A stretch of DNA of 64,000 nucleotides from the human T2T-CHM13v2.0 reference genome, Homo sapiens, in contig CP086569.2 of NCBI GenBank assembly GCA_009914755.4, positions 16,896,001-16,960,000 on the forward strand, in the 5' to 3' direction. The notes beneath the pieces are model-generated. The model was given only the letters and a program-made list of their open reading frames with translations. It did not search any database and had not been told where the DNA came from. The position numbers and the translations under genes were made by a program. Within the stretch, counting starts at the first letter, position 1; each line of letters opens with the position of its first letter. Of the stretch, positions 28,021-42,772 are shown one piece after another.

Positions 28021-29199
28021 TAGCAGGATGAAATCTCCCATCATTACTCTCTATCCTGCCAGGGACAGGAATCATCTTTCTCTTCAGTATATCTGTTCTG
28101 TAGACAATTAGGAGTCATCTCAGTTATTGGAGTCATTGCCCTGGTATGGAGTGCTTATGGTCAAATAATCTTTATTTTCCTTAGTAATGGCCCCAAAGTA
28201 TAAGACTAGACATGCTGGCATATTATTATAATTGTTACCTTTTTTTATCAATTCTCTCACTGTCCCTAATTTATAAATTAAACTTATCATAAGTATATAG
28301 CTATAAGAAAAAATATAGTATCTATAGCGTTCAGTATTATCTTCAGTTTCAGGGATCCACATGGGCCTTCAAACATATCACCCATAATAAGGGGAAATTA
28401 CTGAAGTATAATTTTTTAAATGTTGACTAGGATATGTTAAAGATAAATATTGAATTCTCTACAGTCATACTTTCAGCAGAACTTTCTGAGATGACAGAAG
28501 ATGGGTTAGTGTCTTGGAAATGCTACAACAAAAATACCAGAGACTGGGTAGCTCATAAATGACACTAACATATTTCTCATAGTTTGGGAGGCTGGAAGTC
28601 CAAAATTAAGACAGCCTCAGATTCAGCGTCTGGTGAGGACTTGCTTCCTGCTTCATAGATGGCACCTTCTTGTGTTCTCACATAGTAGAAGGGGTGAGGG
28701 AGCTCTCTGGAGTACCTTTTATGAGATTTCTAATCCCACTCACAAGGCCCACTTTCACGACCTCATCACCTCCCAAAGGACACACATTCTAATATCATCA
28801 CCTTGACGGTTATCTTTCAACACAGGAATTAAGTGGGAGGACACAAATATTTAGTCTATAGAAGTATTGCATTGTTCAATATGGTAGCCATCAGCAACCT
28901 TGGATAGTGAAAGCTTGAAATGTGGCTAGTGTGAGATAGGGGCTGATTTTTGACATTGCTATTTAATTCTACTTTCTTTTTTTATTGTTATTATACTTTA
29001 AGTTTTAGGGTACAGGTGCACAATGTGCAGGTTAGTTACTTATGTACACATGTGCCATTGTGGTGTGCTGCACCCAGTAACTCGTCATTTAACATTAGGC
29101 ATATCTCCAAATATTATTCCTCTCCCCTCCCCCACCCCAGCAACAGGCCCCAGTGTGTGAAGTTACCCTTCCTGTGTCCATGTGTTCTCATTGTTCAAA

Positions 29200-32100
29200 T
29201 CCCACCTATGGGTGAGAACACACGGTGTTTGGTTTTTTGTCCTTGTGATAGTTTGCTGAGAATGGTGGTTTCCAGCTTCATCCATGTCCTACAAAGGACA
29301 TGAACTCATCATTTTTTATGGCTCTATAGTATTCCATGTTGTATATGGCCACATTTTCTTAATCCAGTCTATCATTGTTGGACATCTGGATTGGCTCCAA
29401 GTCTTTGCTATTGTGAATAGTGCCACAATAAACATACGTGTGCATCTGTCTTTATAGTAGCATGATTTACAATCCTTTGGGTATATACCCAGTAATAGGA
29501 TGACTGGGTCAAATGGTATTTCTAGTTCTAGATCCCTGAGGAATCGCCACACTGATTTCCACAATGGTTGAACTAGTTTACAGTCCCACCAACAGTGTAA
29601 AACTGTTCCTATTTCTCCACATCCTCTCCAGCACCTGTTGTTTCCTGACTTTTTAATGATCACCATTCTAACTGGTGTGAGATGGTATCTCATTGTGGTT
29701 TTGATTTGCATCTCTCTGATGGCCAGTGATGAGGAGCATTTTTTCATGTGTCTTTTGACTGCAAAAATATCTTCTTTTGAGAAGTGTCTGTTCATATCCT
29801 TTCACCAATTTTTGATGGGGTTGTTTGTTATTTTCTTGTAAATTTATTTGGGTTTCTTGTAGATACTGGATATGAGCCCTTTGTCAGATGAGTAGATTGC
29901 AAAAATTGTCTCCCATTCTGCATGTTGCCTGTTCACTCTGATGGTAGTTTCTTTTGCTGTGCAGATGCTCTTTGGTTTAATTAGATCCCATTTGACAATT
30001 TTGGCTTCTGTTGCCATTGCTTTTGGTGTTTTAGACATGAAGTATATATCCATGCCTACGTCCTGAATGATATTGCCTAGGTTTTCTTCTAGGGTTTTTA
30101 TGGTTTTAGTTGTAATATTTAAGTCTTTAATCCATCTTGAATTAATTTTTGTAGAAAGTGTAAGGAAGGGATCCAGTTTCAGCTTTCCACATATGGTTAG
30201 CCAGCTTTCCCAGCGCCATTTGTTGAATAGGGAATCTTTTCCCCATTGCTTGTTTTTGTCAGGTTTGTCAAAGATCAGATGGTTGCAGATATATGATATT
30301 ATTTCTGAGGGCTCTGTTCTGTTCCATTGGTCTATATCTCTGTTTTGGTACAAGTACCATGCTGTTTTGGTTACTGTAGCCTTGTAGTATAGTTTGAAGT
30401 CAGGTAGCGTGATGCCTCCAGCTTTGCTCTTTTGGCTTAGGATTGACTTGGCAATGCGGGCTCTTTTTTGGTTCCATATGAAATTTAAAGTAATTTTTTC
30501 CAATACTGTGAAGAAAGTCATTGGTAGCTTGATGGAGATGGCATTGAATCTATAAATTACCTTGGGCAGTGTGGTCATTTTCACAATATTGATTCTTCCT
30601 ACCCATGAGCATGGAATGTTTTTCTATTTCTTTGTATCCTCTTTTATTTCATTGAGCAGTGGTTTGTAATTCTCCTTGAAGTGTCCCTCACATCCCTTGT
30701 AAGTTGGATTCCTAGGTACTATATTCTCTTTGAAGCAATTGTGAATGGGAGTTCACTCATGATCTGGCTCTCTGTTTGTCTATTATTGATGTATAAGAAT
30801 GCTTCTGATTTTTGCACATTGATTTTGTATGCTGAGATTTTGCTGAATTTGCATATCAGCTTAAGGAGTTTTTGGACTGAGATGATGGAGTTTTCTAGAT
30901 ATACAATCATGTCATCTGCAAACAGGAACAATTTGACTTCCTCTTTTCCTAATTGAATACCCTTTATTTCCTTCTCCTGTCTGATTACCCTGGTCAGAAC
31001 TTCCAACACTACGTTGAATAGCAGCGGTGAGAGAAGGCATCCCTGTCTTGTGCCAGTTTTCAAGGGAATGCTTCCAGTTTTTGCACATTCAGTATGATAT
31101 TGGCTGTGGGTTTGTCATAGATAGCTCTTATTACTTTGAGATATGTCCCATCAACACCTAATTTATTGAGAGTTTTTAGTATGAAGGGTTGTTGAATTTT
31201 GTCAAAGACCTTTTCTGCATCTATTGAGATAACCATGTGGTTTTTGTCATTGGTTCTGTTTATATGCTGGATTATGTTTATTGATTTGTGTATGTTGAAC
31301 CAGCCTTGCATACCAGGGATAAAGCTCACTTGATCACAGTGGATAAGCTTTTTGATGTGCTGTTGGATTTGGTTTGGCAGTATTTTTCTGAGGATTTTGG
31401 CATTGATGTTCATCAGGGATATTGGTCTAAAATTCTATTTTTTTTTGTTGTGTCTCTGCCAGGCTTTGGTATCAGGATGATGCTGACCTCATAAAATGAG
31501 TTAGGGAGGATTCCCTCTTTTTCTATTGATTGCAATAGTTTCAGAAGGAATGGTACCAGCTCCTCCTTGTATCTCTGGTAGAATTCGGCAGTGAATCCAT
31601 CTGGTCCTGGACTTTTTTTGTTTGGAAAACTATTAATTATTGCCTCAATTTCAGAGTCTGTTATTGATCTATTCAGAGGTTAAACTTCTTCCTGGTTTAC
31701 TCTTGGGAGGGTGTATGTGTGGAGGAATTTATCCATTTTTTCTAGGTTTTCTAGTTCATTTGCATAGCGATGTTTACAGTATTCTCTGATTGTTGTTTGT
31801 ATTTCTGTGGGATTCGTGGTGATATCCCCTTTATCATTTTTTGTTGTGTCTATTTGATTCTTCTCTCTTTTCTTGTTTATTAGTCTTGCTAGCAGTCTAT
31901 CAATTTTGTTGAACTTTCCAAAAAACCAGCTCCTGGATTCATTAATTTTTTGAAGGGTTTTTTGTGTCTCTATTTCTTTCAGTTCTGCTCTGATCTTAGT
32001 TATTTCTTGCCTTCTGCTAGCTTTTGAATGTTTGCTCTTGTTTCTCTAGTTATTTTAATTGTGATGTTAGGGAGTCAGTTTAATATATTTCCTGCTTTCT

Positions 32101-41500: not shown

Positions 41501-42395
41501 GAAAACCTATGCATTACCATTCAGGACATAGGCATGGGCAAGGACTTCATGTCTAAAACACAAAAAGCAATGGCAACCAAAGCCAAAATTGACAAATGGG
41601 ATCTAATTAAACTAAAGAGCTTCTGCACAGCAAAAGAAACTACCAACAGAGTGAACAGGCAACCTACAAAATGGGAGAAAATTTTCACAACCTACTCATC
41701 TGACAAAGGGCTAATATCCAGAATCTACAATGAACTCTAACAAATTTACAAGAAAAAAACAAACAACCCCATCAAAAAGTGGGCCAAGGATATGAACAGA
41801 CACTTCTCAAAAGAAGACACTTATGCAGCCAAAAAACGCATGAAAAAATGGTCACCATCACTGGCCATAAGAGAAATGCAAATCAAAACCACAATGAGAT
41901 ACCATCTCACACCAGTTAGAATGGCGATCATTAAAAAGTCAGGAAACAACAGATGCTGGAGAGGATGTGGAGAAATAGGAATGCTTTTACACTGTTGGTG
42001 GGACTGTAAACTAGTTCAACCACTGTGGAAGTCAGTGTGGCGATTCCTCAGGGATCTAGAACTAGAAATACCATTTGACCCAGCCACGCCATTACTGGGT
42101 ATATACCCAAAGGACTTAAATCATGCTGCTATGAGTACACATGCACTTGTATGTTTACTGTGGCATTATTCACATTAGCAAAGACTTGGAACCAACCCAA
42201 ATGTCCAACAATGATAGACTGGATTAAGAAAATGTGGCACATATACACGATGGAATACTATGCAACCATAAAAAATGATGAGTTCATGTCCTTTGTAGGG
42301 ACATGGATGAAATTGGAAATCATTATTCTCAGTAAACTATCACAATAACAGAAAACCAAACACCGCATATTCTCACTCATAGGTGGGAATTGAAC
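38575..42395 (+). pseudogene. L1 ORF2 (EN/RT) remnant, broken into at least 6 pieces by stops and frameshifts
   Basis: ORF-track pieces: 38869-39645 (…[44 protein letters not shown]…, the EN domain); 39805-40164; 40262-40987 (…[25 protein letters not shown]…[47 protein letters not shown]…, the RT domain); 41002-41187; 41534-41740; 41792-42178. Confidence 0.85.
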
Positions 42396-42772
42396 AATGA
42401 GAACACATGGACACAGGAAGAGGAACATCACACTCTCAGGACTGTTGTGGGTTGTGGGGAGCGGGGAGGGATAGCATTGGGAGATATACTTAATGCTAGA
42501 TGATGAACTAGTGGGTGCAGTGCACCAGCATGGCACACGTATACATATGTAACTAACCTGCACATTGTGCACATGTACCCTAAAAGTTAAAGTATAATAA
42601 TAAAAAATTAAAAATTAAAAAGAAAAAGAAAAAGAATCTACAAGTCCTCACAGAGACTCTTTGAGAATGTCTACGACAGGTTTATTCGTAGTAAAGAAAA
42701 ACAGGAAACAACCCATATGTCTATGAAAAGGGAAATGCATAAAGAAATTGTAATAGATTTACACAATGAATA

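What the first reader, a model, noticed from the sequence alone, without database searches (positions are those of the whole stretch)
28964..42649. Head-to-head pair of two full-length L1PA elements with a 1.47 kb spacer between their 5'UTRs
Two ~6.1 kb full-length LINE-1s sit in opposite orientation with their 5' ends facing each other (antisense copy 28977-35126, sense copy 36595-42634). Each has its own perfect TSD (taattctactttc; a[a/t]ctacaagtcctc), so these were two independent insertions, not an inverted duplication. The 5'UTRs clearly differ: for example the block '…cccgtcattgcccaggcttgcttagg' in the sense copy corresponds to '…ccagccatggccaaggcttgggtagg' in the antisense copy. This suggests different L1PA subfamilies and ages, with the plus copy closer to the L1HS/L1PA2-4 consensus. 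Two consequences are worth checking. First, ~6 kb inverted repeats separated by only 1.5 kb form a large quasi-palindrome, a candidate for inversion polymorphism or replication fragility. Second, L1 5'UTRs carry an antisense promoter, and in this geometry both antisense promoters point into the 1.47 kb spacer (which also holds a Z-DNA-prone TG/TA repeat at 35890-36015 and a MaLR LTR fragment). Convergent transcription, if it occurs, could generate dsRNA or small RNAs.
Basis: partly seen in the sequence, partly recalled or inferred. Interest (0 to 1): 0.55.

Follow-up and report, generated by a model that had tools for sequence, protein, structure and literature searches.

The report
Two dead L1 copies, head-to-head
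Two full-length but long-dead LINE-1 retrotransposons of different ages landed independently, about 1.5 kb apart and facing each other, in repeat-rich primate DNA; a few such pairs are expected by chance, so the arrangement is ordinary.

Summary
A minus-strand full-length L1 (28977-35126, 6150 bp) and a plus-strand one (36595-42633, about 6040 bp) face each other across a 1468-bp spacer. Each has its own target-site duplication.

They are independent insertions of different subfamilies.
- The plus copy lacks the 128/129-bp ZNF93-binding segment of the 5'UTR, the hallmark of L1PA3-short, L1PA2 and L1HS. It is 94.5% identical to an L1HS reference.
- The minus copy keeps that segment and the modern 5'UTR layout, which places it at L1PA4-6 grade. 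It is 90.5% identical to L1HS and about 1.7-1.9 times more decayed.
- Both are dead: 9 and 10 stop codons, many frameshifts, ORF0 broken, and roughly 60% of CpGs lost.

The arms are 89% identical and the longest perfect block is 62 bp. No mosaic pattern suggests past exchange. Published L1-mediated inversions involve arms about 97% similar, and a 1.5-kb spacer strongly lowers inverted-repeat fragility. Inversion or fragility is therefore possible but unlikely.

The antisense-promoter geometry is as described, but no tool here could test transcription. Uniform placement of full-length L1s predicts about five such pairs per genome. Verdict: ordinary, already-known kind.

The parts
28964..28976 (.). 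TSD of copy A, copy next to the A-tail (TAATTCTACTTTC)
   Evidence: Exact 13-mer found only here and at 35127-35139; it abuts the T-run that is the reverse complement of the A-tail.
28977..35126 (-). Copy A: full-length, dead L1PA element of L1PA4-6 grade. Approximate layout: A-tail and 3'UTR 28977-29194, ORF2 remnant 29195-33019, ORF1 remnant 33083-34099, 5'UTR 34100-35126.
   Evidence: Collinear with copy B and with the L1HS reference. An ORF2 fragment matches human L1 ORF2p structures at E=1e-128. It has 9 in-frame stops, about 14 frameshifting indels in the coding region, and ORF1 ATG changed to ACA.
34230..34357 (-). 128-bp 5'UTR segment present in A and absent from B and L1HS: the ZNF93-binding-site segment of L1PA4 and L1PA3-long
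   Evidence: The only large indel between the copies. Its position just 3' of ACCTCAC, and the TCCAGAG motif inside it, match the published description of the 129-bp element (PMC5860796).
34525..34724 (+). Region of A homologous to the L1HS antisense promoter (+400-600); any transcript from it would run rightward on the plus strand into the spacer
   Evidence: Coordinates from the 3-way alignment. It is 89.5% identical to the L1HS reference. Promoter activity was not tested.
35127..35139 (.). TSD of copy A, copy at the 5' end
35127..36594 (.). 1468-bp spacer made of older repeats: a DNA-transposon-like fragment at about 35373-35720, an imperfect TG/TA compound microsatellite at 35890-36015, and a MaLR (THE1/MST-like) LTR fragment at 36066-36341 (minus strand)
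   Evidence: No Rfam family hit.
36579..36594 (.). TSD of copy B, copy at the 5' end (GAAACTACAAGTCCTC)
36595..42633 (+). Copy B: full-length, dead L1 of L1PA3-short/L1PA2 type. Approximate layout: 5'UTR 36595-37501, ORF1 remnant 37502-38513, ORF2 remnant 38576-42393, 3'UTR and degenerate A-rich tail 42394-42633.
   Evidence: 94.5% identical to the L1HS reference over 6011 bases. An ORF2 fragment matches L1 ORF2p structures at E=6e-154. It has 10 in-frame stops and several frameshifts. Coordinates.
37371..37372 (+). Junction of the 128/129-bp 5'UTR deletion (ZNF93-escape deletion) in copy B
   Evidence: B reads ...GACACCTCACACGGCCAGGT|ACTCCAACAGACATGCAG..., the same junction as the L1HS reference. 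Literature.
36996..37196 (-). Region of B homologous to the L1HS antisense promoter (+400-600); any transcript from it would run leftward on the minus strand into the spacer
   Evidence: 96.5% identical to the L1HS reference. Coordinates. Activity was not tested.
42634..42649 (.). TSD of copy B, copy after the A-tail (GAATCTACAAGTCCTC, one mismatch)

Best explanation
These are two separate target-primed reverse-transcription insertions of full-length LINE-1 elements into the same AT-rich, repeat-dense stretch of a primate genome. They were made millions of years apart by successive L1PA subfamilies.

The minus-strand copy A inserted first. It is of L1PA4-6 grade, best guess L1PA5/6, with roughly 5% of its own decay. 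The plus-strand copy B inserted later, about 1.45 kb away in the opposite orientation, probably into a MaLR-derived sequence. B is of L1PA3-short/L1PA2 type and must post-date the great-ape 129-bp 5'UTR deletion. It has about 2.7-3.3% of its own decay.

Both have since decayed into non-coding fossils. The head-to-head geometry is a coincidence of insertion with no demonstrated function.

What is shown and what is inferred:
- Shown: anatomy, TSDs, identity values, the diagnostic deletion and the loss of coding capacity.
- Inferred: the subfamily labels, the ages and the order of insertion.
For: - Separate TSDs are placed exactly at both ends of each element.
- Target sites are A-rich, as expected for the L1 endonuclease. 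They read TG/AAAC for B and, on the element's own strand, AG/AAGAAA for A (read).
- Both copies have full-length 5' ends, A-rich tails, and ORF2 fragments matching human ORF2p structures.
- The 128-bp segment is present in A and absent from B, at the position of the published ZNF93-site deletion.
- A keeps the modern 5'UTR layout with GACTATATCCC. This layout arose in part of L1PA6 and persists in younger families.
- Three-way alignment with an L1HS reference gives B-H 94.5%, A-H 90.5% and A-B 89.0%. Private non-CpG branches are 2.7% for B, 6.6% for A and 1.2% for the reference. Its translations match PDB ORF2p 8uw3 at 2921 bits over all 1275 residues, and ORF1p 2yko.
- ORF1 N-terminal and coiled-coil codons differ from L1HS by about 30% in A and 13-17% in B. 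This fits the known burst of ORF1 evolution between L1PA5 and L1PA3.
- There are 9 stops in A and 10 in B, plus frameshifts. CpG counts are 34 and 41 against 97 in the reference.
- About 5 such pairs are expected per genome by chance.
- The window holds at least four more L1 pieces and many Alu and MaLR copies.
Against: - No repeat library (Dfam/RepeatMasker) and no primate genome were available. Subfamily names therefore rest on one structural marker, the distance to a single reference and published descriptions.
- The UTRs of the reference are from memory and were checked only indirectly. The reference does reproduce the 71-codon antisense ORF0 at 450-235 and the published splice and branch landmarks.
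- Splitting A's branch into subfamily evolution and its own decay rests on a non-significant synonymous/non-synonymous contrast.
- The order of insertion is inferred from decay, not from nesting.
- The absence of function is an absence of evidence: no expression, editing or population data could be consulted.
Confidence: 0.93

Rival explanations
1. The pair is an inverted duplication or palindrome: one L1 plus flank copied in reverse, rather than two insertions.
For: The arms are collinear over their full 6 kb in inverted orientation.
Against: - Each arm has its own, different TSD exactly at its ends.
- The arms differ by the subfamily-diagnostic 128-bp segment and by 11% of bases. A is consistently about twice as far from L1HS as B along the whole length.
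- No homology extends beyond the L1 ends into the flanks.
Confidence: 0.01
2. The inverted 6-kb arms act as a recombination or fragility substrate. Non-allelic homologous recombination, or fold-back annealing in single-stranded DNA, would invert the spacer plus the inner parts of the arms, or cause breakage, giving a polymorphic inversion at this locus.
For: - Inverted L1 pairs did cause human-chimpanzee inversions (PMC2603318), and 8 polymorphic human inversions were found in three genomes (PMC9675761).
- In long single-stranded DNA, yeast inverted repeats interact even at 75% identity and 30-kb spacing (PMC10164571).
- The arms are long (6 kb) and close (1.5 kb) at 89% identity.
Against: - The longest perfect block is 62 bp. 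Only 6 blocks reach 50 bp, and the mean is 9 bp.
- L1 pairs at known inversions have a median similarity of 97.1%.
- In wild-type yeast, a 1.5-kb spacer lowers the rearrangement rate 31-fold relative to a 12-bp spacer, and divergence lowers it exponentially.
- No segment shows the two copies having swapped or homogenised their private substitutions (scan statistic reached in 392 of 5000 permutations).
- Both TSD pairs are still in the configuration expected of uninverted insertions.
Confidence: 0.05
3. The two antisense promoters fire convergently into the spacer. Alternatively, a host transcript reads through both arms and folds into a long imperfect hairpin. Either route would yield dsRNA that is edited by ADAR, sensed, or diced into small RNAs.
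For: - The geometry is right.
- L1PA2-8 5'UTRs have antisense-promoter activity within their first 600 bp, and pre-Ta primate L1s supply 31% of antisense-promoter ESTs.
- B's promoter-homologous region is 96.5% identical to L1HS.
- Full-length young L1s are a reported source of dsRNA (PMC7609715).
Against: - No expression data could be consulted.
- Both 5'UTRs have lost most of their CpGs and many positions (80-84% identity to L1HS over +101-399). A's promoter-homologous region is only 89.5% identical.
- ORF0 is interrupted in both.
- The bidirectional dsRNA reported in the literature comes from L1PA1 and L1PA2, and from within single elements. The pair geometry is therefore not needed and is not known to add anything.
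- The arms would pair with a mismatch about every 9 bp.
- No known RNA family lies in the spacer.
Confidence: 0.07

Closest known systems
L1PA3 (short, ZNF93-escape form) / L1PA2 full-length LINE-1 copies
   Same: - Copy B has the same 5'UTR deletion junction as L1HS and is 94.5% identical to an L1HS reference.
- It has a full 5' end with the YY1-box sequence CAAGATGGCCG, ORF1 and ORF2 remnants, a 3'UTR, an A-tail and a 15-16-bp TSD.
   Different: - Dead: 10 stops, frameshifts and a 6-bp ORF1 deletion.
- It lacks the L1HS-Ta 3'UTR state: it reads GATGAAC where the reference has GACACAT (the diagnostic is recalled from memory).
- The TATA of the ZNF649 site is mutated to TGTG.
- L1PA3-short and L1PA2 cannot be told apart here.
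L1PA4-L1PA6 full-length LINE-1 copies (ZNF93-site-bearing 5'UTR)
   Same: - Copy A keeps the 128-bp segment, with the TCCAGAG motif described for the L1PA3-long/L1PA4 5'UTR.
- It has the modern 5'UTR layout with an intact TATA.
- Its ORF1 N-terminal half is strongly diverged from L1HS, as expected before the L1PA5-to-L1PA3 transition.
   Different: - The exact subfamily is undetermined.
- Dead: ORF1 start lost, 9 stops and about 14 frameshifting indels.
- A 7-bp deletion at reference position 708.
Inverted L1 pairs that mediated inversions (recombination-mediated inversions, human versus chimpanzee; TE-mediated rearrangement inversions in human populations)
   Same: Two L1PA elements in opposite orientation within a few kb; long arms.
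   Different: Those pairs are young and alike (median 97.1% similarity; L1PA families younger than about 20 Myr). This pair is 89% identical with perfect blocks of 62 bp or less, and shows no trace of exchange.
Twin-priming 5'-inverted L1 insertions
   Same: L1 sequence on both strands side by side. A true example lies in this same window at 54116-58690.
   Different: Twin priming gives one TSD pair around two non-overlapping parts of one L1. Here each arm is a complete element with its own TSD.

Membership tests
LINE-1 (primate L1PA lineage), full-length insertion | L1HS/L1PA2-8-type 5'UTR starting at nucleotide 1, with the YY1-box region | tested here: met
   Both copies align from position 1 of the reference. 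B has CAAGATGGCCG and A has CAAGATGGCTG.
LINE-1 (primate L1PA lineage), full-length insertion | ORF1 and ORF2 (endonuclease, reverse transcriptase, C-terminal domain) homologous to human L1 proteins | tested here: met
   ORF2 fragments hit PDB L1 ORF2p at E=6e-154 (B) and 1e-128 (A). The whole coding region is collinear with a reference whose translations match PDB ORF1p and ORF2p.
LINE-1 (primate L1PA lineage), full-length insertion | 3' A-rich tail and a short target-site duplication at both ends | tested here: met
Retrotransposition-competent L1 | Intact ORF1 and ORF2 | tested here: not met
   A has 1+8 stops, has lost the ORF1 ATG and has many frameshifts. B has 4+6 stops and frameshifts.
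L1PA3-short / L1PA2 / L1HS (copy B) | 129-bp deletion removing the ZNF93 binding site from the 5'UTR | tested here: met
   A 128-bp gap in B at exactly the same place as in the L1HS reference, next to ACCTCAC.
L1HS-Ta (copy B) | ACA trinucleotide in the 3'UTR (diagnostic recalled from memory) | tested here: not met
   B reads GATGATGAACTAGTGGG where the reference has GATGACACATTAGTGGG. The private branch of the reference is 1.2%.
L1PA4-L1PA6 (copy A) | ZNF93-site segment retained, together with the modern 5'UTR layout and its TATA | tested here: met
   Segment at 34230-34357. GACTATATCCC is conserved.
L1PA4-L1PA6 (copy A) | Best match to that subfamily's consensus (RepeatMasker/Dfam/Khan et al. 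consensi) | not testable with these tools
   No repeat library is available. No supplement with consensus sequences is held.
Recombinogenic or fragile inverted repeat (quasi-palindrome) | High arm identity, around 95% or more as in documented L1-mediated inversions, with long perfect blocks | tested here: not met
   89.0% identity and a longest block of 62 bp, against a median of 97.1%.
Recombinogenic or fragile inverted repeat (quasi-palindrome) | Short spacer (tens of bp) allowing cruciform or hairpin extrusion in duplex DNA | tested here: not met
   The spacer is 1468 bp. Rearrangement rates drop 20-fold at 200 bp and 31-fold at 1.5 kb in yeast.
Recombinogenic or fragile inverted repeat (quasi-palindrome) | Observed inversion polymorphism or breakpoints at the locus | not testable with these tools
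   No primate genome or structural-variant catalogue is available. Look-ups of locus-specific ORFs and a junction 25-mer found nothing.
Inverted segmental duplication | Arms of equal age sharing flanks, without separate TSDs | tested here: not met

The most novel reading that the evidence does not exclude
The locus could be a rare old L1-L1 inverted pair that is structurally or transcriptionally active. One possibility is a polymorphic or recurrent inversion of the 1.5-kb spacer mediated by 89%-identical arms, for example through fold-back annealing in single-stranded DNA. The other is a roughly 6-kb imperfect RNA hairpin, or convergent antisense-promoter transcripts, that feed ADAR editing, MDA5 sensing or small-RNA production.
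Probability: 0.05. Interest if true: 0.3.

Novelty: already known. Interest (0 to 1): 0.1.

Why it matters
It matters little as it stands. The locus is a clean example of two successive L1PA generations, before and after the ZNF93-escape deletion, preserved side by side. It can serve as a worked case for dating insertions from their private decay.

If population or expression data showed an inversion or dsRNA here, it would show that arms only 89% identical still interact. That would widen the set of repeat pairs considered at risk. Nothing found here points that way.

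Tried and rejected
1. Orthologous or empty sites. Exact-protein look-ups of two locus-specific ORFs found nothing: the 66-aa antisense ORF ending in B's TSD, and B's 258-aa ORF2 fragment. Exact 25-mer scans of the spacer/TSD junction in the metagenome and prokaryote-genome collections also found nothing. Presence or absence in other primates could therefore not be tested.

2. Paralogue-based reconstruction of the empty sites. Flanks joined with one TSD copy were compared with the rest of the window by BLAST. No alignment spans either junction.

3. Published L1PA consensus sequences. No supplement is held for the reconstruction paper. In a three-sequence comparison, errors in this reference fall on its own branch.

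4. Gene conversion or past exchange between the arms. Sliding windows showed low A-private counts in the ORF1 C-terminal region and two windows with B at or above A. The scan statistic was not significant (392 of 5000 permutations). The shared differences there are mostly non-CpG substitutions, read here, as an inference, as changes on the lineage leading to L1HS.

5. Domain-specific synonymous/non-synonymous contrast, used to place A before the L1PA5-to-L1PA4 burst. It is suggestive only (Fisher p=0.08).

6. Rfam scan of the whole window: no family.

7. The promoter/terminator scanner was not used, because it models bacterial sigma-70 sites and is irrelevant to Pol II L1 promoters.

8. Inverted duplication and twin priming were considered for the pair and rejected on the TSD pattern.

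Full report
**Observation.** The window is AT-rich (about 38% G+C) primate DNA full of L1, Alu and MaLR copies. Two full-length L1 elements sit at the reported coordinates.
- Copy A occupies 28977-35126 on the minus strand (6150 bp). Copy B occupies 36595 to about 42633 on the plus strand (about 6040 bp with its degenerate A-rich tail).
- Inverted-repeat detection returns 17 collinear blocks, 80-95% complementary, covering both elements from end to end.
- A is bounded by the exact 13-mer TAATTCTACTTTC at 28964-28976 and 35127-35139. These are the only two occurrences in 64 kb.
- B is bounded by GAAACTACAAGTCCTC and GAATCTACAAGTCCTC at 36579-36594 and 42634-42649, with none expected by chance.
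- On each element's own strand, the target sites start with A-rich sequence after the nick, as expected for the L1 endonuclease (read).
- The spacer, 35127-36594, is 1468 bp. It holds a DNA-transposon-like fragment, an imperfect TG/TA compound microsatellite (35890-36015) and a MaLR LTR fragment (36066-36341, minus strand).

**What the two elements are.** ORF fragments from both copies match the solved structures of human L1 ORF2p, at E=6e-154 for B and E=1e-128 for A.
- Its two reading frames are open and have the right lengths (338 and 1275 codons).
- The ORF2 translation aligns end to end with PDB 8uw3 at 2921 bits, with only a handful of substitutions in the part of the alignment that was printed.
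- The ORF1 translation matches 2yko.
- Its UTRs are unvalidated. They do reproduce a 71-codon antisense ORF at 450-235, which matches ORF0 as I recall it, and the published branch-point and splice landmarks.
- In a three-sequence comparison, errors in such a reference load onto its own branch and not onto A or B.

**Different subfamilies.** A and B are 89.0% identical. B is 94.5% and A is 90.5% identical to the reference.
- The single large indel is a 128-bp segment present in A (34230-34357) and absent from both B and the reference. It lies directly after ...GACACCTCACA[C/T]GGCCAGGT.
- Published work places the 129-bp ZNF93-binding segment exactly there: between the ACCTCAC branch site and the acceptor at 788/789 of L1.3, and containing TCCAGAG in the long form. 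Its loss arose in L1PA3 in the great-ape ancestor and is fixed in L1PA2 and L1HS. B is therefore L1PA3-short or L1PA2.
- B is not L1HS-Ta, because the 3'UTR lacks the ACA state (diagnostic from memory). The branch leading to the reference is 1.2% at non-CpG sites.
- A keeps the segment and has the modern 5'UTR layout, including GACTATATCCC. This layout arose within L1PA6 and characterises all younger families. That brackets A between L1PA6 and L1PA3-long.
- A's ORF1 N-terminal and coiled-coil codons differ from L1HS by about 30%, against 13-17% for B and about 14% in A's own RRM/CTD. This fits the documented burst of ORF1 change between L1PA5 and L1PA3 and favours L1PA5/6. The domain contrast in ORF2 is only suggestive (p=0.08).

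**Age and state.**
- Private non-CpG substitutions amount to 2.7% for B and 6.6% for A.
- A's excess of synonymous changes suggests that 15-25% of its branch is evolution of the master lineage.
- The literature dates L1PA6 to about 27 Myr and the L1PA5-to-L1PA4 transition to 18-20 Myr. From memory, L1PA3 dates to about 12 Myr. On these dates, A inserted some 20-27 Myr ago and B roughly 10-15 Myr ago.
- Both are fossils. A has lost the ORF1 start codon and has 9 in-frame stops and about 14 frameshifting indels. B has 10 stops, several frameshifts and an in-frame 6-bp deletion.
- CpG counts are 34 (A) and 41 (B) against 97 in the reference. In the first 900 bp they are 7 and 11 against 40.
- ORF0 keeps its ATG in both copies but is stopped at codon 25 in A and codon 17 in B.

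**Is the arrangement special?** Take the 6609 full-length L1PA1-6 copies quoted for the human genome and 3.1 Gb. Uniform random placement then predicts about 5 head-to-head pairs with a spacer of 1.5 kb or less, and about 10 inverted pairs of either polarity. L1s cluster in AT-rich DNA such as this window, so the true expectation is higher. The pair needs no explanation beyond chance.

**Inverted-repeat consequences.**
There are 575 perfect blocks with mean 9 bp and median 6 bp. Only 6 reach 50 bp and the longest is 62 bp.
- L1 pairs at sequence-resolved polymorphic human inversions have a median similarity of 97.1%. Human-chimpanzee inversions involved young, similar L1PA copies.
- For hairpin or cruciform-driven fragility in duplex DNA, yeast data show a 20-fold drop at a 200-bp spacer and a 31-fold drop at 1.5 kb, with an exponential drop as divergence rises. 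Only in long single-stranded DNA do diverged, distant repeats interact freely.
- I looked for a footprint of past exchange. Along the alignment A is almost everywhere the more diverged arm. The best segment in which B carries the excess of private changes is not significant (392 of 5000 permutations).
- Each TSD pair is still in its original configuration. Inversion or fragility is therefore possible in principle but unlikely, and it cannot be tested without population data.

**Antisense promoters.**
- The geometry claim is right. The segments homologous to L1HS +400-600 lie at 34525-34724 (A) and 36996-37196 (B). Transcription antisense to each element would run into the spacer from both sides, then onward into the partner's 5'UTR in its sense direction.
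- L1PA2-8 share the L1HS-type 5'UTR with antisense-promoter activity in the first 600 bp, and old primate L1s do contribute antisense-promoter transcripts.
- B's segment is well preserved (96.5%) and A's less so (89.5%).
- The bidirectional, dsRNA-forming L1 transcription reported so far comes from single full-length L1PA1 and L1PA2 elements, so the pairing adds nothing known.
- No RNA family is detected in the window. No expression data can be consulted here, so this part of the interpretation stays untested and has a low prior.

**Comparison and verdict.** These are ordinary members of known L1PA subfamilies in an ordinary juxtaposition.
- The pair is not an inverted duplication, because the TSDs are separate and the ages differ.
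- It is not a twin-priming product. A genuine twin-priming L1 lies elsewhere in the window at 54116-58690.
- It does not meet the tested criteria of a recombinogenic quasi-palindrome.
The proposed consequences are speculative, and where they could be tested the evidence is against them.
- Interest is low and the kind is already known.

Noticed in passing
window 54103-58702: An older L1 (81-84% identical to the L1HS reference) with classic twin-priming anatomy. The minus-strand piece equals L1 positions 1638-3665 (54119-56546, interrupted by an Alu at 55795-56080). It joins at 56546/56549 to a plus-strand piece equal to positions 3680-6030 (56549-58690) with an A-tail. The whole is flanked by the TSD AAGAA[A/G]CATTTAC at 54103-54115 and 58690-58702.
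   Followed up: yes
window 22274-23147: A degenerate (GGAA)n polypurine tract of about 0.87 kb (period 4, about 220 copies, 65% matches; GC skew +0.47, AT skew +0.36). It creates two spurious overlapping 318-codon ORFs on the minus strand. As a long purine/pyrimidine mirror-like tract, it is a stronger non-B-DNA (triplex) candidate than the TG/TA repeat in the spacer.
   Followed up: partly
window 36066-36341 and 42774-42907: Two minus-strand MaLR (THE1/MST-like) LTR fragments bracket copy B. They cover LTR positions 5-351 on the left and 239-363 on the right. B may therefore have inserted into the short internal region of one MaLR element. A paralogue-based test of continuity across the empty site was uninformative.
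   Followed up: partly
window 1-849, 17945-20723, 50255-53572: Further truncated L1 pieces: plus strand at 86% identity, minus strand at 87-89%, and minus strand at 81-83%. The whole window is a repeat-dense, L1-rich neighbourhood.
   Followed up: no
window 36920-36940 (copy B 5'UTR, reference positions about 330-340): In B, the TATA of the ZNF649 recognition region (GACTATATCCC in L1HS and in copy A) reads GATTGTGTCCC. The older copy A keeps it intact. This is probably private decay, but it removes a motif described as important for both L1 transcription and ZNF649 binding.
   Followed up: no
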